Below, one piece after another: positions 3,189-18,903 of a stretch of 64,000 nt of DNA (position 1 is the stretch's first letter; every line of letters begins with the position of its first letter). The DNA comes from Styela clava (Eukaryota): the NCBI RefSeq assembly GCF_964204865.1, contig NC_135263.1, forward strand, positions 10,230,001 to 10,294,000, read 5' to 3'. Position numbers and translations under genes: made by a program. A model generated the notes under the pieces. That model ran no database searches. It saw nothing but the letters and a program-made list of their open reading frames with translations, and was not told the DNA's origin.

Positions 3189-3391
3189 CCGTAAAACCTC
3201 TATTTCACCGCCATATCGCTCTATTTCACCGCCATATCGCTCTATTTTTCAACTCTTCCCCAATAGTGGTGTTCTATCAGAGGCGACGTTCAATTAGAGG
3301 GTGGCGCTCTATTTTTCAACTCTTCCCCGATAGTCAGACAGTGGTACCATGGTGTTCTATTACAGGTGGCGCTCAAATACAGGTTTTACGG
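3189..3391. mobile_element. Tc1/mariner-pogo-type MITE
   Basis: TIRs CCGTAAAACCTCTATTT / AAATACAGGTTTTACGG, flanked by TA on both sides, with internal short repeats (ctctatttcaccgcc). Confidence 0.75.
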
Positions 3392-3732
3392 TATTTGCCG
3401 TTTCCCGATACGCACCATTCTGCAATTTGAACAGTGATTTCTCGGGCCAGAAGTTATCGTGTTATTGCTTTTTTGACACAGATACGGTACAGATGTAAGC
3501 TATGGTACGGTACCGTAAGTTCACTAGTCTAACCTTTAATTGCACAGGCGTTAAACATTTGTGACCTCACGGTACCTACTTCTGTACTTTGCCATCCTGC
3601 CATCGGAAATATCCAGATATATTTTCTATTTCAGTATTTGATAGATCAGGAAACAGGGAAATAATGAAATAAAATATATTTAGCTTTGATGTTCAGATGT
3701 TAGAATAATTAGGTCTGAAGCATTTTGCACAG

Positions 3733-5520
3733 ATGGACGAGAATAACTTGGACTTGCTTTGTGCTATAGAAGTTGATGATGGATTGGAAGGACGATTGAA
3801 AGATCGGGGAATTTCAAGGAGAAATGTACGCAGCATAATTCATGAGCTGTTCACCAATGAAAGCGTTTTAAAGTTATTAGAAACGGAAGACGCAGAACCT
3901 GAACTGGATTTTACAGATGCTCCAGTCACAAGGTCGAAAAGGCCACGAACCGAGTTTAATGACGAATTCAAATATTTGGATTTGAGCACCGGTAGTGTCG
4001 AATTTCACAAACTCAATAATGACAATGAAATAAACCAAAATGAGAATTCTCTCGTTTGTTGCAATGATGACACCTTTGATTCAACTCGTGATATCCATAT
4101 TGAAGGTTATGATGATGATGGGAAGTTTAACTGGCAGACGTGGTTGACAGGGCTTGAAAATACTGAAAAGGATACTGCTGAAAAACGGGATGAATATGAT
4201 TCCGAAGAAGATCCAGACTTCAATTTCTTGGCGGAAGCAGAGGAATTTGATGTTGAAGATTTTAGGGATGACTGTGTTACAAGAATATCTAAACGAGAGC
4301 TAAGGAGTCTAAACCTGCGGAAACGGTCAACTGCGAGAAAGAAGAATACTGCTTCTAATGAAAATTCGACTGGAAATGAGATTTCTTCAACGGACAAAAT
4401 TTGTAGTCTAAATATTGATGATTATAAAAAATGTAAAACTGTGCGTGAGAAGTTGATGATATTGCGATGTAATCCAAAGTTGAAAAGCTCTATTATTACA
4501 ACAAGATCCAAGCGTGTAAAAGCACAAAAAAGAGACTTGAGTTTCACTATACAGCAAAAAGAAAACCTTTTGCAGCAAATGCAACAACATGTACAGCTTC
4601 TTACTCAAGTTTGTTTATTGGAGCAATATAGCATTGAAACTTTTTATAAATCACGAATGCTATTGTATGAAATTGATTATTTTCGCCAGAATAGTTTCGA
4701 CTCTCAAAAGACTCAATTCAATATACCTTGTCTGTCCGATGCACTAAGCATTGTTCAGCAAATATCTTCATCTACAAAGCTTACTACTTGCAAAGATAAT
4801 TTTGACAGAGAAATGAAAATCATTGCTAACAGTAATGTTTTCATGTATAAAGAGTTACTTCCAGTCATTGTAGGTGATAAACAATTACATAATGGAAAAA
4901 GGCCTTTTTCATTTCATGAGGATTGTTTAATCGCTCGTGGAATACATGAAATGTCTGGGAATTTTATTCTTACTACTTCAGAACTTATCTCACGATTTAT
5001 GCTTCCATGTCGTACAAGTAAAGAAATAAAAGCACATATCAACTATTTCAGTTCAATTCGAAGTGTTAAAAACGCTACAAACCCTATTGTGCAATATAAA
5101 GCATTTAAAGTGCTTCCCGAACCCGCTGACACAATCATTCCAGTACTGCCTTACGACGCTAAATCACCAATGCAAATGGATGGAGACCTTCCTGAATGGC
5201 TGACTTCACTTCAGCAGGGTTCATCTTCTCAAATTTTTGAAAACGGTAGTTACGAATTGGATGTGAATTCCACTGAGACTGAAATTGTTAATCAATTAAT
5301 TACACACAATTTTAAGAGAATAAAACCTGTGAAAGTGTCAAAAAATTGGACTAGAAAATTGGATGAATTGATTCTTACGACTTGTAAATGTCATGATGGT
5401 GCAACAAAAGGAGCATTAGATATTCTTGCACGTGATATCCCAACCAAGACAAAGAGTCAAATTAGGAGACGGTTTTACAAATTGTTATCAATATTTCATA
5501 AGTCCGTGGTCAAATCGTAA
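3733..5520 (+). CDS. GON4L: GON-4-like protein (GON4L/YARP family), compact 595 aa, single-exon CDS
   Basis: Conserved blocks RRNVRSIIHELFTNE, acidic EEDPDFNFL...VTRISKRE, FTIQQKENLLQQMQQHVQLLTQ and FSFHEDCLIARG, plus a C-terminal SANT/Myb-like WTRKLDELIL...QIRRRFYKLL. The acceptor ttttgcacag abuts the ATG. Confidence 0.8.
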   Translation: MDENNLDLLCAIEVDDGLEGRLKDRGISRRNVRSIIHELFTNESVLKLLETEDAEPELDFTDAPVTRSKRPRTEFNDEFKYLDLSTGSVEFHKLNNDNEINQNENSLVCCNDDTFDSTRDIHIEGYDDDGKFNWQTWLTGLENTEKDTAEKRDEYDSEEDPDFNFLAEAEEFDVEDFRDDCVTRISKRELRSLNLRKRSTARKKNTASNENSTGNEISSTDKICSLNIDDYKKCKTVREKLMILRCNPKLKSSIITTRSKRVKAQKRDLSFTIQQKENLLQQMQQHVQLLTQVCLLEQYSIETFYKSRMLLYEIDYFRQNSFDSQKTQFNIPCLSDALSIVQQISSSTKLTTCKDNFDREMKIIANSNVFMYKELLPVIVGDKQLHNGKRPFSFHEDCLIARGIHEMSGNFILTTSELISRFMLPCRTSKEIKAHINYFSSIRSVKNATNPIVQYKAFKVLPEPADTIIPVLPYDAKSPMQMDGDLPEWLTSLQQGSSSQIFENGSYELDVNSTETEIVNQLITHNFKRIKPVKVSKNWTRKLDELILTTCKCHDGATKGALDILARDIPTKTKSQIRRRFYKLLSIFHKSVVKS

Positions 5521-5659
5521 AATCTTTCTAATTTGATCCTTTTTATTTTCGTTTTTCAATTCTTTATGATTTAACACTGTGCATTATCGATGTAATAGTC
5601 ACTTATTTATTGGGTGGATACTTTGTGATTTATGTTGAAAAATGTATTTTACAGCTCCT

Positions 5660-6571
5660 ATGCTAGCTATTTGGCAACGTTTTAGAATGGCAAAATTTTA
5701 TGCCGTTTTTCGAGGCCGTAAAGCAGGTGTATACACAACATGGAACGATTGCAAAAAACAAGTTGATGGCTTTAAAGGGTGTATCTACAAAAGTTTTGCT
5801 GGAGAATCTGAAGCTAAGATATTCGCTAAAACTGGAGAAGTTGGATTAGCTGTAAATAAATTAGACAAGCCTTCCAGCTCCAACGTGTCTACAGCTGCTT
5901 GCTCGATAGACTCGAAAATATTGATGGATATTTTTGGAGATCCAAACGATGATGTATATTCCGATGAAGAAGGGCTTACTGTAAAATCAAAATCGGCCAA
6001 AAAAAGGAAATTGGATAGTTCAAAGAAAACCAAACAAGCCAAAGTTTTGAAAATAGATACAGGCTTAACATGCCATGGCTCTAACAAAAAAATTATCAAT
6101 GATATGGCATTCAGCGTTGATGAAAAGTCAAACCCTGTTGTGTACACTGATGGTGCATGTTCCAATAATGGTAAAAAGAAGGCTGTCAGAGCTGGGTATG
6201 GCGTGTGGTGGGGTGAAAATCACCCTCTGAACATTAGTGCCCGGTTGGAGGGAGTACAGACAAATCAAAGGGCAGAAATAGCTGCAGCCAATGCCTGTAT
6301 AAAACAGGCTGTCGATAAAGGACTCAAATCCATAACCATAAGAACTGATTCTATGTTTATAATTAATTGTATAACAAAATGGGTACCTGGTTGGTTAAAG
6401 AAGAAGTGGATCAAAAGTGATGGTAAGCCTGTTGTGCATAAACCGGAATTTATGACAATGCTAACAAATTTGAAAAATGTAGATGTGAAATGGGAGCATG
6501 TTAGAGGACATCAAGGTATCTATGGCAATGAAATGGCAGACAGATTAGCTGTCAGGGGTGCCACAATGTAA
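5660..6571 (+). CDS. RNASEH1: Ribonuclease H1 (hybrid-binding domain + RNase H catalytic domain), single-exon CDS; alternative ATGs at 5660 and 5687
   Basis: N-terminal HBD FYAVFRGRKAGVYTTWNDCKKQVDGFKGCIYKSF. Catalytic motifs VYTDGACSNNG, QTNQRAEI, IRTDS and HVRGHQGIYGNEMADRLA. The ORF-track start at 5642 overlaps the acceptor tattttacag and is probably not used. Confidence 0.95.
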   Translation: MLAIWQRFRMAKFYAVFRGRKAGVYTTWNDCKKQVDGFKGCIYKSFAGESEAKIFAKTGEVGLAVNKLDKPSSSNVSTAACSIDSKILMDIFGDPNDDVYSDEEGLTVKSKSAKKRKLDSSKKTKQAKVLKIDTGLTCHGSNKKIINDMAFSVDEKSNPVVYTDGACSNNGKKKAVRAGYGVWWGENHPLNISARLEGVQTNQRAEIAAANACIKQAVDKGLKSITIRTDSMFIINCITKWVPGWLKKKWIKSDGKPVVHKPEFMTMLTNLKNVDVKWEHVRGHQGIYGNEMADRLAVRGATM

Positions 6572-7269
6572 TTGGTGTCCTATTTGATTCCAACAATTAA
6601 AAAAAAAGCCTTTTGTCATGTTCGCAAATATAAGGTTATTTTCACAGCCCAATGTGTTTTCTTCATTTGGAGACCTCTATCAAAATAAATGAACAAATTC
6701 TCTACATCTCCATTTTGTTGGCCTTAATATTATGATTTTACCAATCAATCATTAATGTAAGGATAGGGGAGTCGATTCATAATATACCCAAGTTTGCATA
6801 TAAATCTAATTTTCATACGTACTGTTAAAATAGTATTCAATCTGACCTTTACACTAAAACAGTTTTGAGATAAGGAAATCCATTCTAAGGAGGAGGATGC
6901 TGATATGAACTATATGCTGACCAACGTTCAATCATGTTTCAATATTACAATTTCAATAATTTCGTGTAGATATATTTTTTTAGTTTCGTTCAAATGCAAC
7001 TTTCTTATGATTATGACTTTTTTTCCTATTCTTTATTTCATTAAATGATGACAACTGCATTGCCAGGGAATTAGGGAGTATTTCTTGTTTTCAAAACCAG
7101 GTATCCAGTGTTGAGAGGAAATCACAAAGTACCTTATTGATGTCAAAGTAAATGTTGTGATTACGGTAATTAAAATTAGGTTGCTTCTAGGAATACCGTT
7201 TTTCACAGAGGGAGAAGTTTTAAGTGCGACAATCTTGTACTGGTACGCGTTTGCTCTCATCTCCTAAAA

Positions 7270-7530
7270 CTACCCAAATAATGGGCTGGGTCTAAGCGTT
7301 GTCTGATTTTCAGGGAATGGATTCTCCCGTAGATTACTTGACTATCTGTTGAGTTTACGGTCTTCATAGCCGCAACACGTACCAGACCATACATAAGTGG
7401 GAAATTGCTATCCCAAATGACCCACAAACAATGCCTATTGTCAATGTGACATTCACCCTTATTCAACTTTTACTTCTGCATGGAAGTTCGGGAGACACTG
7501 CTTGTCCAAACAGTGCGACAGGCAGCTTTA
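7270..7530 (-). mobile_element. Possible highly decayed BEL/Pao integrase C-terminal remnant
   Basis: The minus-strand translation GLVRVAAMKTVNST resembles the DGLVRxVxVKT motif of BEL/Pao pol ends. The rest is degenerate. Confidence 0.25.
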
Positions 7531-7609
7531 GTATCACATGGTTTCCCTACGGTTAGTTTCAATTTTTCCGCATGAACTTAAATACCGGTACACAACAAAA
7601 CAAAGAAGC

Positions 7610-7824
7610 AACGAGAATATCGGTCAGAGACGAAGACTTATAGATCGAAAGTTAGGGGATCCTCCAAAGCAGCGCTCTTGACACCTTTTGTCCCATCACT
7701 AATTAATCAATAACTCGCTAATTATACGGCATAATTCGCTTTCGTGAGATATCGCGTGCATCTAACAGACATACACACAGACAAATACCTGTCAACATAC
7801 TTACCGATTAAAATCGATAAGTAA
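7610..7824 (+). mobile_element. HINE/DINE-1-like element, family 1 (internally deleted copy)
   Basis: Homologous to 52456-52745 and, inverted, to 35837-36097. It starts AACGAGAATATCGG, has subTIRs acttat(c)gat/atcgataagt, a 3' hairpin acttaccgattaaaatcgataagt and an (ACAG)n-like tract. Confidence 0.7.
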
Positions 7825-8815
7825 TAATGCTCAAATACATGAACAAGAAAGTCCGATCGCAGCAGAGACCGAGAGCTGCTATCTTATTCTCACCACAAGT
7901 GTGTGAAGAGTTATGACTAAAAATAAAACAGCAAAATAGGCGAATAACTCTTAACTATATGGTCCCATACTACCATGAGAATTTGAGAAATATTAATAGC
8001 CTCTTGCAACTGCATTCATCTTTAAGTATTAGGAATTGAGTGTAGACCACTACTTGCGGAGAAAAGCGAATTAAGCATAGGTCCACTTGATGTGCAACAA
8101 CTTGGATTTGGCAATAATCCTCGCATATGATGTCACCATAACATTAGATACACAAAAATGAAATGTACAAATTGCGTATTTTATTTGAATATGGTACACA
8201 GGAACATTTGAGGGGTCTAAAGATGGGTAAGTCCGAACAAAAATCATTGACTACATATTTGGTTAATTGAAATGGGCACTCTGTACTAGTTGCTTTGCTA
8301 GTACTTTGTACTTTTGCTCCACAATCATTGCTTAAATAATGAAACACTTTTCTTAATGAGTCAGATATTAGGTGATATTTAAAGGAATACAGTTAGCCAA
8401 ACCAAGCACTGAATCGAACTTTTGAAAATTATGGTTACAAATCTAAAAGATCAACCTCAGATGTATTTTTCATCAAAGCCTGCTTTACTCAAGGGAGATA
8501 TGGTTTAATAGAGGCATAGCACTACACAAGGATAAAATGCCAAATTATATGAATGGAACTTTTTAAATTTAAGACTTTGGAACAAATGATAGAAAGCAGG
8601 GATGATCACAAAAACTTTAAAGGGGTTGAACTTAACAAGCATCAAATTAATAATACCCAAATACATATGAGACAAAAGCATTATATACAACAATAAATTA
8701 TTATATCATCAATAGCTAGCTAGTGTACAACTGAACATTGAAAGAGGCCTTCTTTATCTATGTTATCATGACTCTAACTTGAATCTTACTATCACAACAA
8801 ATTGTCATATCGAGT

Positions 8816-11269
<2,454 letters not shown>

Positions 11270-14200
11270 TTAAAATTTAATTCTGTACGGACAAAACATT
11301 TTATGAGAAAATATATGAAGAATGTTAATCATTACTACAACAAAGAAAGTGAGCTACATCAAAGAAAAGTAATATGATTTGGCATGATTTATTTTACCAT
11401 TCTTCAGATAACTGTACAGTGCTCCTATCTGCACCAAATATCACCTGTAATTTATTGGGTTAGAATAAGAACCCCATGCAATAAAAAAAATGAAGAACTA
11501 TCAGTCTCCATAATTACACTTTGCATCAATGGGAAGTAGTAATCTGAAATAAAATAAACTTCACAAATGTATCTAATTAAATAAAGAGTAATAAAAAATT
11601 TGCCTAAGCATTCCATGTAATACAAGAATCTTGCTGTACTGTTAACAGGAATGCATTTCTGTGAAGTTTTATTTCACTGAGGTCTAACTTCTTCACGTGA
11701 GTGTTCAACACTGAAGCATAGATATTTTTATTCTTGCATCTTAACATCAACTGATAGTTGTTTATGAATAATCCAATTTTTACCCAATTGCAGAACCAAA
11801 TATAAGCTAGTTAAGCAGTCAAGACAGCTACTTGAAAATGTGATATTTTGTGATTGGTAACATGACTTGGTATAATGGTATGTTATCTTGCGGATATGAT
11901 CCTAAGATGCAAAGAAACACATAGTGGAATTCTAGAATACACTTCCATGCAACCCATATTCATTCATTCCCAACTGTCCAAGACATAAACTTGATACTGT
12001 GCCGCTGATTGACAAGGAGGACATTCACTGTATGCTATGGGGTATTTGAGAGAGTTACCCTCTTTTATACAAATTCATTCTTATTTGAAGTTCAGATAAT
12101 TCGGCCCGAATAGTATTAATTTAAACCCGTTCCAATAAGACCAAAGAATGACATTATGTACTGCTTAGCCGGAAATAGTTAAAAATAAATTACAATTTTA
12201 ATTGCGATTAGATCCAAGATAGTGACAGGATGAATACTCTTGAAATATTTCAATAGTGCACATAGATGGAAAATCAATCCTATAATTCTCATTTTATCAT
12301 ATAGTTTAGACTTGTCATAACTCACAAGTTGAAAAAATACTTTTACATGGGGATATGATATATATTACAAATACAGTATGGTTACTTTGTGAATTAGCCG
12401 TTAATAGAGCACTAATGGAATCAAATAACAATGAAAATTAGGTTAGAAATTACTGAGGAAGAGAAGTTTTCAGCTATCTAGAACAAGCTAGTAGAAATGC
12501 AAATAGAGAATTGAAGTCTATTACGATCAATTTATAACACCATAAAAATTTTATGCCTCACTTACATACATGCATCAAACAATCTGGACCAAAAAATTTT
12601 GAGATCCGATAAAGCAATTTTCTACCTTCAGCTCCTTTCCTGTATAAGTTGCACCACAAGTAACAGAATTTGTATCATCTATAATCATTTAGGTCTATGA
12701 GGTATTTTAATCTAAAATCTGAAAAAAATTTCAAGAGAACAATGTACAAATCATATTAAGAAAAGAAAAAATTGTGTGTCAAAAAAGAGAAACTAAAACA
12801 ATAATATCAGCATATCAAAAAGAAATGAGGACATGAGAACTGTGAACTCATAAAAATATTAATATATATTGTACTCAATAATCAATGTCAAATCACACCA
12901 CAATTAAGAACAAGAACGGGACATGAGTGATTAGTTGGATTGATAGAGGATGTACCCCTCAAAAAAAAATTCTGCCCCGAATGGGATCAAGGAAAAATGA
13001 TTCTCAAGAAAGTTGCTATATATGGAGCATTAGAGAGTAGAATTTTCTAGGAAAGAAGCATGATTTAGGAAATGTATTCTCATCGAAAGTGAGATAAAAT
13101 ACCTAAACAACAAATATTAAGCAGGCAAAGGCATGAGTTACAAGACCATGTGCTCGACTTCAAGTTCTTATACTATATCAAGAAGAACAATGCATAAGAA
13201 AAGCACAACATAATGTACGTTCTGAAATACACATTTTGTTTATCATAATCGAAAACAGATTAGTTTAAATATAAAAGGTGTAATCACACAATTATCTTTT
13301 GAATGACAATTCAAATTAAAAAAATTACGGTCAAACTACTCTTTAGCAAATATCAAATAATTATCATCCTATGATGCAATAGCGCTTCATATATAAAGTT
13401 TAGAAGAAATTGTAATGGCATAGGCATGAGATATAGGCTTATCTTAAGATATGCCAACTTAACCTCATGAACAAAGCTATCAAAGCAACTAAAAAAAATC
13501 ATTTTTCGACACTACCAATCATTTCTGAAAAGTTGCATGAAATTTTCAACCAAAAAATTTCTGAAACAGGAATGGCAAGAAACATATTTTGAAAAATATC
13601 ATTTTAATATAAGTACCACCAGGATTGGGGACCACAACTGAAAATTGAAACCAGAATATATAGATTAAGCTACAAGGCAGCAGTAGGGCAGTTAGCCACA
13701 ATGAATGGTGAAAAGCCGAACATATACAAAAGTATATACGATACTTATCTATTATTTAGTTCTTTCAAAAATGAGGAATACTAATGTATCTCTTCACCAG
13801 AATAGGTGAATATAACCCTTAAAATGGGCAATTAACTATTATTATCATAGTTTATTAACAAACAGTCCAATGTCTAGAGTCATCGATCTATCATATCGAC
13901 TAAAGCCTAAAAGATGTCTAAAATTCACCTTTTTTTCCTTAGATATCCTGCTAAATAGATTAATTATTCTGGGAAATCATGATGTATATATAAATTCATT
14001 AACACAATTATTTAAATACATTTATTCTCGAAATGCATTACCATTAACTTTTATGAGGACAACTTTTCAGGGCTATCAATGGGTTTTAAATAAAAAATTG
14101 AGGTAATAAAGTGCAGACTAAAACATGTACGTGTCAGCAACGAACTCTTATCACTTGTACAAATAAATGTGAAATAGATAATTTCAATCAAAGAAATTAA

Positions 14201-15078
14201 TTTATATTAAAACCAAATTAGAATTGTTAGACACTCTATATATGCAAAGGGCAGGGTCACACAAAATAAGTTAATCAAGTGAAAAAAAACTCTGTGAGCT
14301 GAAAATATTATGCCCCATTCATTATTTAGGCATGTTCTCGATAGCACATGCTTCAGCTATAGATAGATATAATAATCAAATAAAACTCTAAATGTTGGCA
14401 GTGTCTATAAATGTCTTATCAATAAATTACACTCGAACATGATACTCAAAAATCCGTTTGATTCCGATTTCCTTACCAGGAAACTGTTTAGAATTGACAA
14501 TATCGAATCAAAACAATTTTGACTGATAAAATAATTCATTGAGATGCCCACTCATTTTAAAATTAAACTCACATTAGTATTTGATGATGAAGGGCTTCAA
14601 TGTCCTGCCTTTTATAAATATGAATTGAATATTGATAATACAACAGAGCAAATGAAAAACTCAACCAAATTTTATGCATTTAAAAGGTTACCGGTAGTGA
14701 TACATTGACAAATATTATAAGTTAAATTAGACCAAAGGATGCTTTCACACATCATTTAATCTATGGCAATCAATATCAAAACTGCACTCGAAAATTAAAT
14801 TTTTTCTAAACATAAGATTTTAAGCTAACATTTTTCACAGAATTATTTTCAATTCCTAGCATCTAAATGGATACTGATTGAAAAATCATAAGAGCACAGT
14901 AGTCCACATTCTGAAATAACAAAAAATATTTCGAAAATAAATTAGTATTTAGTTACTTGGGGTACACTACCAGCTGCAGACAGACTCTCACACATATTCC
15001 CATAGTATTTCGGATCAAATCAGTCGACCATAAAAAATACATTTGTTTCATTCCAATGCAGATAGTGCATTGAATCAT

Positions 15079-18000
15079 TCATTTGCTATCTTTTGTTTCA
15101 TTCTCATCATCTATGATTTCAATAGCTGTGATAGTTGTGGAGGTTTGATGACCATTCAAGGGAGTTGGTGACGAAGTTCGGCTTGTTGATGCCATATGTT
15201 GTAACAATGCATCTTTTGTTGGAATACGTACAGCGGAACTTTGCCCTGCTGGACGTTCGGTTAGCATGCCACTGCCTATTTGTTTAAAATACTGCATTTG
15301 AAGTTGTTTAAATTGTCTTTGTAAATTTTGAAAAGTAGAAAATTTTTCATTACGTTGAAGCTCTAAACGATAGTTAACTTCAACTGCAATTGCTTTAATA
15401 GTCTCTTCATTAGAATTACTATAAAGGGGAGTCTCTTTAAGATGTTTCATTATGCTTGGGACAGACTTAACTTCACATACTTGGTATTGGTAAAAAGCAT
15501 TGGCAACCATTTTACTCAACCTAGATAGTAAAACGACAGATGATTCACTGTCCATTGGTTTTAGTGAAAAAGAGGATGGCCTTTGAGTATTGGATAAATT
15601 ACTTTGCTGCCTCCAATCTTGAAGTGAGATAGTAGGAGCGTGACCTTTCTTTATCATCTCATACTCTTCCCATGCAGCTTTTCTTTCCTCTTCTGTCAAC
15701 TCCTCATCCACTTGATGATCAAGGAGGGAGTCGTGTTCATGATAAGACGCGACCATGTATTTTGTTCGTGGATCAGAGAGTATATCAGCGAGTACTTCAT
15801 CTTTTGGAACAATTGGCGTCGGTTCATCTTTCCCAATATCGGGAGTTGTAGGATTAAAAGTATACATTTCGGCAAGAGAATTAGCAGTAAAATGTCTGTT
15901 AATCTGCTGCTCATCAACAACTCGAAAAGCAAGAGATTGCTTGTTCACCTGTCTTTGGTAGATTTTTTCTTCCATTGTGCCTTCAGCGATAAGTCTATAG
16001 ATATAGCATTTCCTTGTCTGTCCAAACCTATAAACTCTGAACATGGATTGAGTATCATGAGAAGGATTCCATGAGGCATCAAATATGATAACCCTGTTTG
16101 CACCAACAAGGTTCACTCCAAGACTACCTGCACGTGTGGAAATCAAAAATAATCTAGCCCGTGTGTCACTTTCATTGTTGAATGCATTTATCCACTTTTG
16201 CCGATGGTGGCTTTGTGTTGCGCCATCCATACGAAAGTAATCAAGATTTTTAAACCATGTTCTTTTTGGTAGTTTGTTCAAATTTCCGATATCTGGTTCT
16301 TCCCCTGATTCTGTTCCAATCAGGTTTGCCTTAGGGATTTCCTCAGAATTCAATGTATTTTCAGCAGCTGCATCTGACATCTCGTTTTCAGATTCATCAG
16401 AAGACACAGTTGCTTTCAACATTTCTTCAATCAAATCAAGAGATATCAAACTTTGACTGAAAATAAGAACCTTTTCTTTACGTTCCTCTGATAGTCTTAA
16501 TATTTCAAACAGAATTGCAATTTTCGAACTGTTTTGATAATTTTCCAAGGTATTTTGATCCTCGGGGAGAATCTTAGCATACCATTCAGGCTCCTTCTTT
16601 TCAGACGTTGACTCCAATTCGAGAAACTCAATTTCAGCATCACTTTCAACACAACGCAAACGGTATCGTTGTTTTCTACTTGTGGTAGATCTTGTACGTC
16701 TATCAGGAATTTTTTCTGCGTCACTCTCACTGTCGCTTTCACTTTCTTCATCATCAGAACTGTTGCCAGATTCTGCGTCTTCATCTTTTTCTGTAGAAGC
16801 TTCATCGCTGTCCCATTCATCATTATCTTTTATAACTGCCTTTCTTCTTTTTGACCGTGTTCTTCTCGTTGATATGACCTCTTCTGAACCAGAACTATCA
16901 CCTGAATTATCTTTATCAACGTCATTTAAATTATTAACATTGTTTATTTTATCTTTTTTTGTGTCACTGTCAATATTTTTTTCGCTATTTACAGTCTTGT
17001 TGATTGAATCGTTTTCATTATTTTCATTGGCATTTTTGTCATCTTCGTCAGATGAATTCGACCAATCATCTGTTTCGCTTGCTTCCAGTTCTTCTGCAAT
17101 AAAATCCCATTCAGCTTGGCGGGCCAACATCTTGTCTCTCTGAACTGTGTGTAATAACAAAGATTTTGGATGTGTCCATACTCGCATTAAATTTTGATAA
17201 TCAGCAAACAGTGAGGCTCCTTTACCATAAGAATTAACTATTGTTGTGTTTGATCCTCTATTAGTCATTGTGTCTAAATAATGTTGATAGAGTTTTATCT
17301 GTAAAGGCGTGAGGCGAACTTTAAGTACATATTCAAATTTAGAAGACAAATATGGCTTCAGACATGAATAATCTTTGCGTTGAACAAAACCTTGGAGCAT
17401 TTGATGTAAGACATGCGATCGCTTTTTCATAATTTTAACATCACGATCAGTTGAATCAATATGCTGACCATTTATAATTGGGTTAACGAAACGATTCCTA
17501 AATTCTTTCAGGGAGCCGAGAAGATCGGGTTTAACAAAATCAACCATGCAATGATATTCTATAAGATTGTTTTGCAATGGAGTACCAGTAAGGACCAGCC
17601 TTCTTTTCGTTCTCATTTTACTTATTTGCTTTGAGATATGTGAGGTTGCATTTTTGAGCATGTGACCCTCATCACAAACTACAACATCAGGACCAGGATC
17701 GACCAAGCACTCATGCACAGTCTTTTTCCACCCTGAATACCTGATTTTTGTAGTCATAATTCGATACATGTCGTAACCTAAAATCAAAACACCACCGTTT
17801 TTTCGCCATAACCGTAACATAGAAACTCTTTCTTTATTTGTCTTTGGTTCAGCAAAATTAAAAAGATTTAATTCATCACCATCTTCACACCATTGCACAA
17901 ATTCTGCAATCCAATTCCGCACAGTGTTGAGAGGAGCGACTACCATAGCACACTCAAATGGAACATACTTAGTTTTTAAAAGTGTATGTATTACTGAGAT

Positions 18001-18903
18001 AGTTTGCAGTGTTTTTCCAAGCCCCATGCAATGGGCGAGAATGCACCCACTACCAGAGCCATTTTTCACTCTTTCCGTGCTTTCAACAAGATTGTTCCAT
18101 ATAAACTTTACGCCTTCTACTTGATGTGGGCGTAAATGTTGGGCAATATACTCACTAACTGCAACATGTGGATGTTTTTGCAACATTACTGTAGAAGTAA
18201 GTATCTTTTTCTCAGGCGTTTGTTCAATTTCATCTGGTTCCTCTTCACTTTCAGCCTTTTCAAGTTCTTCGAGTCTTTTTAATCTTTCACGTTCCTCTTT
18301 TGCAGCGTTCCTTGTTTGTTTCTGAAGATCTTTATCCAACAAAATTTTTTTGATTTTCCTTCTTCCTAAATTTCTCTCTTTTTTGGTTTTCTTCTTTTTG
18401 TCACGACATTTTCTTACTTTTGCTTCCACAACCGGTTCTTCATCTGAGTTTGTATCATCTGTATTGGAGTCAGTTTCTATCAAATCATCTTTGATTTTCT
18501 TACTCTTTTTTGAAATGGACGAAGCACTACGCTTACGACTACCATTGTGTGTTTTCTTGTCATCTTTTGAATCAAGTTTTGAGTCGGATTCCTCATCTAT
18601 GTCAGATTCACTCCCACTACTACTAGAAATAATATTAGGATTTGTTATGTTCATTTCGGGTTTCACATTATTTTTGAAAATTTCCCTTTTTCTTCTTTGT
18701 GTTTTTTTCAGAGAAGACAGTGGACTACGATTCTTGGGCGTATCTCCTTTGATTGGAGTTAGAACATCTGGCTCGTTGCTATCTGTGAAAAAAGATGAAT
18801 CATCTTCTGATTCAACATCACTCTCTGGTTCAGCATAATTTATTCGTCCACCTTTTCTATTTTTTGAAGCAGCACGAGAACTACGATATTCGTAGTCACT
18901 CAT
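15079..18903 (-). CDS. ATRX: ATRX-like SNF2 chromatin remodeller lacking the ADD domain, 1274 aa, single-exon CDS
   Basis: ATRX-subfamily motifs GRRKIKKILLDKDLQKQTRNAAKEERERLKRL, GCILAHCMGLGKT, VVCDEGH, RLFLISTRAGSLGVNL, SWNPSHDTQSMFRVYRFGQ and HEHDSLLDHQVDEELTEEERKAAWEEY. An in-frame TGA lies 4 codons upstream of the ATG. Confidence 0.93.
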   Translation of the reverse strand: MSDYEYRSSRAASKNRKGGRINYAEPESDVESEDDSSFFTDSNEPDVLTPIKGDTPKNRSPLSSLKKTQRRKREIFKNNVKPEMNITNPNIISSSSGSESDIDEESDSKLDSKDDKKTHNGSRKRSASSISKKSKKIKDDLIETDSNTDDTNSDEEPVVEAKVRKCRDKKKKTKKERNLGRRKIKKILLDKDLQKQTRNAAKEERERLKRLEELEKAESEEEPDEIEQTPEKKILTSTVMLQKHPHVAVSEYIAQHLRPHQVEGVKFIWNNLVESTERVKNGSGSGCILAHCMGLGKTLQTISVIHTLLKTKYVPFECAMVVAPLNTVRNWIAEFVQWCEDGDELNLFNFAEPKTNKERVSMLRLWRKNGGVLILGYDMYRIMTTKIRYSGWKKTVHECLVDPGPDVVVCDEGHMLKNATSHISKQISKMRTKRRLVLTGTPLQNNLIEYHCMVDFVKPDLLGSLKEFRNRFVNPIINGQHIDSTDRDVKIMKKRSHVLHQMLQGFVQRKDYSCLKPYLSSKFEYVLKVRLTPLQIKLYQHYLDTMTNRGSNTTIVNSYGKGASLFADYQNLMRVWTHPKSLLLHTVQRDKMLARQAEWDFIAEELEASETDDWSNSSDEDDKNANENNENDSINKTVNSEKNIDSDTKKDKINNVNNLNDVDKDNSGDSSGSEEVISTRRTRSKRRKAVIKDNDEWDSDEASTEKDEDAESGNSSDDEESESDSESDAEKIPDRRTRSTTSRKQRYRLRCVESDAEIEFLELESTSEKKEPEWYAKILPEDQNTLENYQNSSKIAILFEILRLSEERKEKVLIFSQSLISLDLIEEMLKATVSSDESENEMSDAAAENTLNSEEIPKANLIGTESGEEPDIGNLNKLPKRTWFKNLDYFRMDGATQSHHRQKWINAFNNESDTRARLFLISTRAGSLGVNLVGANRVIIFDASWNPSHDTQSMFRVYRFGQTRKCYIYRLIAEGTMEEKIYQRQVNKQSLAFRVVDEQQINRHFTANSLAEMYTFNPTTPDIGKDEPTPIVPKDEVLADILSDPRTKYMVASYHEHDSLLDHQVDEELTEEERKAAWEEYEMIKKGHAPTISLQDWRQQSNLSNTQRPSSFSLKPMDSESSVVLLSRLSKMVANAFYQYQVCEVKSVPSIMKHLKETPLYSNSNEETIKAIAVEVNYRLELQRNEKFSTFQNLQRQFKQLQMQYFKQIGSGMLTERPAGQSSAVRIPTKDALLQHMASTSRTSSPTPLNGHQTSTTITAIEIIDDENETKDSK

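What the first reader, a model, noticed from the sequence alone, without database searches (positions are those of the whole stretch)
3733..18903. Island of four intron-free genome-maintenance genes as two convergent pairs
Seen: the GON4L, RNASEH1, VCP and ATRX coding sequences (about 9 kb in total) contain no introns, while neighbouring genes beyond 25 kb have ordinary GT-AG introns. Established: vertebrate orthologs of all four are multi-exon. ATRX and RNase H1 both limit R-loops, VCP extracts ubiquitylated proteins from chromatin, and GON4L is a nuclear co-regulator. Inference: the block arose by cDNA-mediated intron loss or by retrogene capture behind existing promoters using SL acceptors. 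The functional theme may reflect co-regulation or chance.
Basis: partly seen in the sequence, partly recalled or inferred. Interest (0 to 1): 0.7.

Follow-up and report, generated by a model that had tools for sequence, protein, structure and literature searches.

The report
Ordinary intron-free sea-squirt housekeeping block
Four intact housekeeping genes sit side by side without introns in a sea squirt, but many similar genes elsewhere in its genome are intron-free too, likely because copies made from RNA replaced or overwrote the originals, so the block is likely an ordinary local run rather than a special island.

Summary
The four reading frames are real and uninterrupted (8,955 bp). The layout is two tandem pairs meeting at one convergent junction. 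The animal is Styela clava. No intron-bearing parent was found: VCP is single-copy, and the ATRX, GON4L and RNASEH1 paralogs are single frames too. Intron-free housekeeping genes are common here: 42 of 96 AAA, SNF2, DEAD and chaperonin loci (floor 42 of 184), against 0 of 16 ligand-gated channel and 2 of 85 trypsin loci. Intron-free anchors have no significant excess of intron-free neighbours, and similar blocks occur elsewhere. A VCP transcript contig begins with the end of a candidate spliced leader whose gene array lies on contig C8. So this is the known ascidian pattern of single-exon and operon genes (PMC2760879), likely made from mRNA; a functional island is not supported. The scan reported the same phenomenon in another sea-squirt genome (e1-7882807). 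Side result: this ATRX is an ADD-less paralog shared with Ciona, Clavelina and Phallusia, kept beside an ADD-bearing ATRX. Synteny and co-expression could not be tested.

The parts
3633..3634 (+). AG splice acceptor ahead of GON4L-short, likely the spliced-leader acceptor (a second acceptor-like AG abuts the ATG at 3731-3732)
   Evidence: One contig (X7) starts here with 4 extra letters, not shown; the DNA-like run X12 goes on. Weak hint.
3733..5520 (+). GON4L-short: 595 aa, N-terminal conserved region joined directly to the C-terminal Myb domain, PAH region missing
   Evidence: full-length 1516-aa single-frame paralog with PAH on C6; two unnamed 581-582 aa relatives
5521..5654 (+). 134-base U-rich spacer ending in an AG acceptor; likely operon junction
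   Evidence: No AATAAA or ATTAAA; GON4L-side contigs end at 5611 and 5640, RNASEH1-side contigs of two studies start at 5653-5655, one contig of a third study bridges the spacer
5660..6571 (+). RNASEH1 with hybrid-binding domain and all four catalytic acids; the frame's first ATG (5642) lies upstream of the acceptor, so the likely starts are 5660 and 5687
   Evidence: acceptor position
6572..8815 (.). Convergent junction: RNASEH1 3' UTR (contig to 6953), a multi-copy repeat near 7.6-7.8 kb, VCP 3' UTR (contig to 7999)
   Evidence: tables 2, 7, 8
8816..11227 (-). VCP/p97, 803 aa, complete N, D1 and D2 domains, the only VCP found in the genome
11228..11284 (-). VCP 5' UTR and AG acceptor (11283-11284); likely trans-spliced
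   Evidence: Contig of X7 carries 8 loose letters here that, with the AG, equal the last 10 bases of the leader-like exon in the C8 gene array
11285..12717 (-). 1.4-kb gap between the ATRX transcript end and the VCP acceptor; likely VCP outron and promoter, too long for an abutting operon
   Evidence: Contig ends; operon criterion from PMC2760879
12718..15078 (-). About 2.3 kb of 3' UTR of the ATRX paralog
   Evidence: Contigs of three runs end at 12718-12781
15079..18903 (-). ADD-less ATRX paralog, 1274 aa, intact SNF2 and helicase-C domains
   Evidence: ADD-bearing 2078-aa single-frame paralog on C10
18948..18949 (-). AG acceptor ahead of the ATRX paralog, possibly the spliced-leader acceptor
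   Evidence: One contig (X7) starts at this AG; another covers the upstream sequence unspliced. Weak hint.

Best explanation
The four intact, intron-free genes are likely a chance local run of a genome-wide sea-squirt pattern in which housekeeping genes likely lost all their introns at once through DNA copies of their spliced mRNA. Shown: the frames are uninterrupted, no intron-bearing parent was found, intron loss is close to all-or-none and strongly biased to housekeeping families, and similar blocks occur elsewhere. Inferred: reverse-transcribed germline mRNA either overwrote each gene in place or inserted elsewhere and outlived the parent; spliced-leader trans-splicing lets such copies be expressed behind another promoter, as likely for GON4L-short followed by RNASEH1 in a two-gene operon, while VCP and the ATRX paralog are likely separate trans-spliced units. 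The shared genome-maintenance theme would be a by-product of the class bias.
For: Single-frame loci: AAA 10 of 25, SNF2 6 of 18, DEAD 22 of 43, chaperonin 4 of 10; together 42 of 96, with 1 mixed and 53 short-exon loci; floor 42 of 184 if every unscored candidate were a further intron-bearing locus. All 30 of 30 anchors fetched gave one ATG-to-stop frame of 412-1847 aa. Controls: 0 of 16 ligand-gated channel loci (all 52 candidates scored) and 2 of 85 trypsin loci (150 of 551 candidates scored) (Fisher p 0.0004 and 8e-12; 0.026 for the floor against channels). Neighbour density of Pfam-supported host frames per 20 kb: 0.34 around 30 intron-free anchors, 0.30 around 20 intron-bearing anchors, 0.23 in 30 grid windows; p 0.23-1.0. 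Paralogs are single frames. Ciona and Clavelina ATRX paralogs have RefSeq isoforms that differ by 1-13 internal residues, which implies coding introns there, so both Styela copies likely lost introns after the duplication. Literature: 38% of Ciona operon genes and 15% of others are single-exon (PMC2760879, passages); retroduplication with loss of the parent named as a major source of intronless tunicate genes (PMC5408686, passage citing Kim et al. 2014).
Against: The family tallies are biased upward, since single-frame hits rank first and not all candidates were scored. Random placement predicts only about 2-12 such quadruplets per genome, counts near intron-free anchors are overdispersed (variance/mean 1.6) and the density there is 1.5-1.7 times the grid value though not significant, so some real clustering through operons is likely. 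The sample is small (80 windows, 49 frames) and some long frames may be long exons. The class bias is read as a germline bias without expression data. No retroposition scar was looked for or found. The Styela genome paper says this species has fewer intron-less genes than Ciona (PMC7540406, passage; its Table S11 was not in the held supplement), which argues against a Styela-specific wave. The isoform argument is indirect: the single-frame Styela GON4L on C6 also has a listed isoform 12 residues shorter.
Confidence: 0.74

Rival explanations
1. The block is a selected, co-regulated cluster for R-loop and chromatin maintenance, assembled by retroposition and leader capture.
For: Four nuclear-maintenance genes in 15 kb with no intron-bearing gene between them; GON4L-short and RNASEH1 abut like an operon; random placement makes such runs rare, about 2-12 per genome. 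The R-loop roles of ATRX and RNase H1 are recalled knowledge.
Against: Only one pair abuts; VCP is 1.4 kb from the ATRX transcript end and the two pairs face each other, so they cannot share one transcript. VCP is a general-purpose protein. Other blocks mix unrelated functions: UBE4A with two DnaJ genes, cyclin H with a DEAD helicase and unnamed frames. No significant excess of intron-free neighbours.
Confidence: 0.07
2. The region is a local hotspot for insertion of processed genes (open chromatin, or existing operon promoters and acceptors), so intron-free genes pile up here without shared function.
For: Seven single-frame host genes within about 65 kb (four here, three at C18:10183475-10189599). 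Three of the four here have a paralog elsewhere, as expected of inserted duplicates. One of 30 anchor windows held four extra long frames. Ciona operons are rich in single-exon genes.
Against: An intron-bearing SDHB-like gene and repeats lie between the trio and the block (name read from the partial frame). Density differences are not significant. The ADD-less ATRX predates the Styela lineage, so it is not a recent insert as a gene.
Confidence: 0.14
3. The frames are silent or decaying retrocopies of intron-rich parents, or an assembly artefact such as inserted cDNA or contaminant.
For: Two of the four are shortened versions of longer paralogs.
Against: No intron-rich parent found; VCP is the only copy. 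The DNA-like run X12 matches the stretch 3250-7050 with one listed difference and one contig spans 3614-6593. Coding differences are mostly synonymous: 12 of 18 in GON4L-short and 12 of 15 in RNASEH1 among the rows shown. Shortened forms are conserved in other species.
Confidence: 0.03

Closest known systems
Single-exon genes and operons of Ciona (Satou et al. 2008, PMC2760879; passages read)
   Same: Single-exon housekeeping genes; same-strand neighbours that abut and are resolved by spliced-leader trans-splicing; single-exon gene in the 5'-most position.
   Different: Another order of ascidians with a 377-Mb genome; only one of the two pairs here abuts; transcript ends are not mapped, so the under-100-base criterion is not formally shown.
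Orphan retrogenes in tunicates (Kim et al. 2014, Dev Genes Evol 224:255; paper not held, seen only as cited in PMC5408686)
   Same: Complete intron loss with no intron-bearing parent left in the genome.
   Different: Here the pattern is counted across whole protein families in one species and shows a strong housekeeping bias; loss in place and replacement from a new site are not separated.
Intron-less gene excess in Botryllus schlosseri (PMC3699833; passages)
   Same: A relative with a large intron-less fraction (about 45% of predicted genes).
   Different: That count includes retroelement genes; the tallies here are of conserved host families.
Drosophila ADD-less ATRX (dAtrx/XNP) and dADD1 (PMC4249797; passages)
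   Same: An ATRX motor without the ADD histone-reading domain.
   Different: Insects split one gene in two; ascidians keep a full ADD-bearing ATRX beside the ADD-less paralog. That paper does not mention tunicates (0 occurrences of Ciona, tunicate or chordate).

Membership tests
Ascidian operon (GON4L-short + RNASEH1) | Same-strand genes whose transcripts lie under 100 bases apart | tested here: inconclusive
   134 bases from stop to acceptor; contigs end at 5611/5640 and restart at 5653-5655, but contig ends do not prove transcript ends
Ascidian operon (GON4L-short + RNASEH1) | Downstream gene receives the spliced leader | tested here: inconclusive
   Contigs of two studies start at the AG with 2-4 extra letters that the tool did not show; a third starts there with adapter sequence; DNA-like run continues
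Ascidian operon (ATRX paralog + VCP) | Transcripts under 100 bases apart | tested here: not met
   About 1.4 kb between the ATRX-side contig ends (12718-12781) and the VCP acceptor (11284)
SL trans-spliced gene (VCP) | mRNA 5' end carries a leader encoded elsewhere, joined at an unpaired AG | tested here: met
   One contig's loose end plus AG equals the last 10 bases of the leader-like exon of a tandem gene array on C8; one contig only, leader gene identity inferred
Orphan retrogene | No coding introns where orthologs have them | tested here: met
   Single frames; introns in Ciona and Clavelina ATRX inferred from isoforms; vertebrate multi-exon structure is recalled knowledge
Orphan retrogene | Intron-bearing parent absent | tested here: met
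   searches score only the best candidates (56 of 70, 36 of 53, 4 of 4, 6 of 6)
Orphan retrogene | Sits at a new site relative to the ancestral locus | not testable with these tools
   No other ascidian genome is held for synteny
Orphan retrogene | Poly(A) relic or target-site duplication | not tested
   Not looked for; expected to be erased in old events
Functional gene cluster | Local excess of like genes over the genome background | tested here: not met
   No significant excess of intron-free neighbours, p 0.23-1.0; low power
Functional gene cluster | Conserved linkage and co-expression | not testable with these tools
   Contig depth cannot rank genes; no related genome
ATRX (canonical) | ATRX-type SNF2 and helicase-C domains with intact motifs I and II | tested here: met
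ATRX (canonical) | N-terminal ADD domain | tested here: not met
   No PF17981 hit, 1 cysteine and no CxxC before motif I; the C10 paralog has it
GON4L (canonical) | N-terminal conserved region and C-terminal Myb domain | tested here: met
GON4L (canonical) | PAH repeats | tested here: not met
   About 800 residues including PAH are absent against the C6 paralog
RNase H1 | Hybrid-binding domain plus catalytic domain with four acidic residues | tested here: met
VCP/p97 | CDC48 N domains and two AAA modules | tested here: met

The most novel reading that the evidence does not exclude
Ascidians carry a second, ADD-less ATRX motor beside the full ATRX (supported here by the tree), and in Styela it has been brought, as a processed gene, into one selected block with an RNase H1 operon and the only VCP: an R-loop and chromatin-maintenance module built from mRNA copies and spliced-leader capture, which would be a rare animal case of a functional gene cluster made by retroposition.
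Probability: 0.06. Interest if true: 0.65.

Novelty: new member of a known kind. Interest (0 to 1): 0.26.

Why it matters
As an island it matters little: it is one more case of the single-exon, trans-spliced housekeeping genes known from ascidians. Two by-products have some value. First, the class contrast (42 of 96 housekeeping ATPase and chaperonin loci against 0 of 16 and 2 of 85 in two specialised families) is what mRNA-templated loss in the germline predicts, and makes that idea easy to test with a full annotation and egg RNA. Second, an ADD-less ATRX paralog kept across three ascidian orders beside the full protein would give a natural way to ask what the ATRX motor does without its histone reader, in the closest invertebrate relatives of vertebrates; three paper searches showed no report of it in their listings.

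Tried and rejected
Intron-bearing parents: none found for any of the four. A fourth RNase H hit at C18:2.89 Mb lies beside a LINE-like reverse transcriptase and was set aside. No run was on record as RNA; runs are RNA by guess, and stretches without cover were not used as evidence. Depth was not used to rank genes. Two guesses at the leader gene pattern found nothing before a shorter one found the C8 array; Rfam gave no match there at E up to 1, and the fold of the most canonical copy is no better than shuffles (z -0.32; the other two types -1.69 and -2.64). AMP-binding family was left out of the tally because only 12 of 147 candidates were scored; all 11 loci listed there had frames of 283 aa or more. 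First tree run did not finish; the FastTree result was replaced by IQ-TREE. No AU test and no ARIP4 outgroup. Names for five long frames in comparison blocks could not be obtained by exact look-up. Kim et al. 2014 is not held. Table S11 of PMC7540406 was not in the one held supplement; it may bear on how common intron-less genes are in this species. Paper searches with nothing on this locus or on a Styela leader. Earlier scan notes near this place: none; one search returned eight unrelated notes and none.
Full report
Observation. The window holds four uninterrupted frames: 3733-5520 (+, 595 aa), 5642-6571 (+, 309 aa), 8816-11227 (-, 803 aa) and 15079-18903 (-, 1274 aa), 8,955 bp in all. Pfam gives a Myb domain, RNase H1 with its hybrid-binding domain, full CDC48/VCP, and SNF2 with helicase-C. 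Cluster members are named GON-4-like and ATRX homolog of Styela clava; the window is G000:C18:10230001-10294000 of a 377-Mb assembly. The order is + + - -: two tandem pairs and one convergent junction. Two claudin-like neighbours splice through GT-AG introns of 161, 500, 410 and 882 bases; a third chain tried gave nothing in the intervals searched. That vertebrate orthologs are multi-exon is recalled, not tested.

Parents and paralogs. VCP is the only full match in the genome; the other hits are different AAA proteins at under 70% identity over short stretches. ATRX has a paralog on C10 that is one 2078-aa frame with an ADD domain; GON4L has a paralog on C6 that is one 1516-aa frame with PAH; RNASEH1 has two single-frame paralogs, one with three of four catalytic acids changed and one without the hybrid-binding domain. 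So no intron-bearing parent was found, within searches that score only the best candidates. The window's GON4L lacks about 800 internal residues, and the same short form occurs in two unnamed assemblies at 52% and 37% identity.

Expression and selection. No run was on record as RNA. Contigs of runs guessed to be RNA (X1, X5, X7, X8; three studies) cover all four frames with no joint inside them, and begin at AG acceptors at 3633, 5653-5655, 11284 and 18949, where the DNA-like run X12 continues for the first two. Among the differences shown (the tables were cut to the best supported rows), 12 of 18 in GON4L-short and 12 of 15 in RNASEH1 are synonymous and none is a stop, which fits purifying selection. 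One VCP contig has 8 loose letters that, with the AG, match the end of a leader-like exon. That 10-base end followed by GT occurs 207 times in the genome against 171 for the control; 49 of the 100 places listed lie in a 0.29-Mb array on C8. All 13 copies read have a TATA-like box, a leader-like stretch of about 24 bases (identical in 12) and a GT donor, followed by three kinds of 3' part. I read this as the spliced-leader RNA gene family; Rfam has no match. GON4L-short and RNASEH1 are 134 bases apart from stop to acceptor, with no standard poly(A) signal: likely an operon. The acceptor leaves out the frame's first ATG, so RNASEH1 likely starts at 5660 or 5687, which recalls the two starts of mammalian RNase H1 (recalled). 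The ATRX transcript runs 2.3 kb past its stop and ends about 1.4 kb from the VCP acceptor, so these two are likely separate units.

Genome background. Grouping hits within 10 kb into loci, the match lies in one frame of 400 aa or more for 10 of 25 AAA, 6 of 18 SNF2, 22 of 43 DEAD and 4 of 10 chaperonin loci: 42 of 96 including the two window genes, with 1 mixed and 53 short-frame loci. The figure is biased upward because 56 of 70, 36 of 53, 56 of 113 and 47 of 47 candidates were scored; counting each unscored candidate as an intron-bearing locus gives a floor of 42 of 184. I fetched 30 of the 42; all 30 gave one ATG-to-stop frame of 412-1847 aa. Two specialised families behave differently: 0 of 16 ligand-gated channel loci and 2 of 85 trypsin loci have a frame of 300 aa or more. 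Loss is thus close to all-or-none and biased to housekeeping genes, as expected if spliced germline mRNA is the template (inference; no expression data).

Clustering. In 20-kb windows I counted frames of 250 aa or more other than the anchor: 49 frames, of which 15 were set aside as mobile elements (10 by Pfam, 5 by judgement). Pfam-supported host frames (all non-mobile frames in brackets): 9 (15) in 529 kb around 30 intron-free anchors, 6 (9) in 400 kb around 20 intron-bearing anchors, 7 (10) in 600 kb of 30 grid windows; no comparison is significant (p 0.23-1.0). Some of these may be long exons. Random placement predicts about 2 quadruplets as tight as this one at 7 frames per 30 windows and about 12 at 11 per 30. 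One of the 30 anchor windows, C10:10983630-10995461, holds five long frames in the same + + + - - layout, with cyclin H and a DEAD helicase and gaps of about 120 bases; three of the five are unnamed. UBE4A and two DnaJ genes form a same-strand single-frame trio 44-50 kb upstream of the block. The block is therefore in the upper tail, some operon-driven clumping is likely, but it is not an isolated island and other blocks mix functions.

ATRX history. The closest relatives of the window protein are ADD-less ATRX proteins of Ciona, Clavelina and Phallusia; the C10 protein's are ADD-bearing proteins of the same three genera. In a tree of 27 rows chosen from those hits (582 columns, LG+G4), the ADD-less group has 90.9/89 support, the ADD-bearing group 100/100, and the split between all tunicate-like rows and the amphioxus, vertebrate, ambulacrarian and nematode rows 93.1/86; one unnamed long-branch row is unplaced. 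One member of the ADD-less group (P0008) begins at the helicase, so its ADD state is unknown. A duplication early in tunicates is thus moderately supported. RefSeq isoforms of the Ciona and Clavelina copies differ by 1-13 internal residues; differences of 1 or 6 residues are too short to be introns themselves and imply alternative splice sites, so both Styela copies likely lost introns after the duplication. This is indirect.

Known work. Satou et al. (PMC2760879, passages): 20% of Ciona genes in operons, single-exon genes 38% in operons and 15% outside, 60% of 5'-most genes. PMC5408686 (passage) cites Kim et al. 2014 for retroduplication with loss of parents in tunicates; that paper is not held. 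PMC3699833 (passages): about 45% intron-less predictions in Botryllus, retroelements included. PMC7540406 (passage) says Styela has fewer intron-less genes than Ciona, which tempers any claim of a Styela-specific wave; its table was not seen. PMC11155486 (passages): about half of Ciona genes are trans-spliced. PMC4249797 (passages): ADD-less ATRX in insects by fission, no mention of tunicates. PMC3074122 (passages) gave nothing on a Styela leader. Search listings showed no report of the ascidian ATRX pair; the library lacks most subscription papers. An earlier scan note on another sea-squirt genome reached the same reading (e1-7882807); it is not independent support.

Verdict. Observation partly confirmed; interpretation partly supported. 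Best reading (0.74): a local run of the known ascidian single-exon housekeeping pattern, likely mRNA-templated, with one likely operon. Functional cluster 0.07, insertion hotspot 0.14, artefact or silent copies 0.03. New member of a known kind; interest 0.26.

Noticed in passing
G000:C8:about 4217865-4506645 and beyond (L210-L219): Tandem array of candidate spliced-leader RNA genes: one promoter and leader-like exon joined to three different 3' parts (5, 6 and 2 of 13 copies read); one type has a GTAAGT donor, a short stem and an Sm-like site. No Rfam match.
   Followed up: partly
window 15079-18903 and G000:C10:14523248-14529484 (L031): Two ancient ATRX paralogs in ascidians, one ADD-less and one ADD-bearing, both with intact helicase motifs.
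   Followed up: partly
G000:C18:8391307-8392146 (L037) and G000:C19:15860188-15860916 (L040): Two extra single-frame RNase H1 paralogs: one keeps the hybrid-binding domain but has three catalytic acids changed (likely an inactive hybrid binder); the other lacks that domain and has a long N-terminal extension.
   Followed up: partly
window 3733-5520 and G000:C6:14696526-14701076 (L034): A PAH-less short GON4L paralog conserved in two unnamed assemblies; no Ciona short form appeared among 19 hits of 327-1042 aa.
   Followed up: partly
G000:C10:10983630-10995461 (L082-L083): Five long frames in a convergent block with about 120-base gaps, including cyclin H and a DEAD helicase; likely two operons facing each other.
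   Followed up: partly
G000:C18:10183475-10189599 (L047): Same-strand single-frame trio of two DnaJ genes and UBE4A, 44-50 kb upstream of the block.
   Followed up: partly
window about 25.1-27.0, 38.8-39.9, 44.9-46.0, 51.6-52.9 and 54.3-55.0 kb: Tandem family of three-exon claudin-like genes, some apparently broken or partly duplicated.
   Followed up: partly
window about 29.9-33.3 kb: Multi-exon gene that looks like a single-pass receptor with CUB-like exons and tyrosine motifs in its tail (read by eye).
   Followed up: no
window about 56.4-60.8 kb: Fragmented Copia-like LTR retrotransposon (gag, integrase-like, RVT_2 pieces).
   Followed up: no
L098-L099 (G000:C2:about 17.75-17.77 Mb): Three tandem RIG-I-like helicase genes with CARD domains, each in one long frame.
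   Followed up: no
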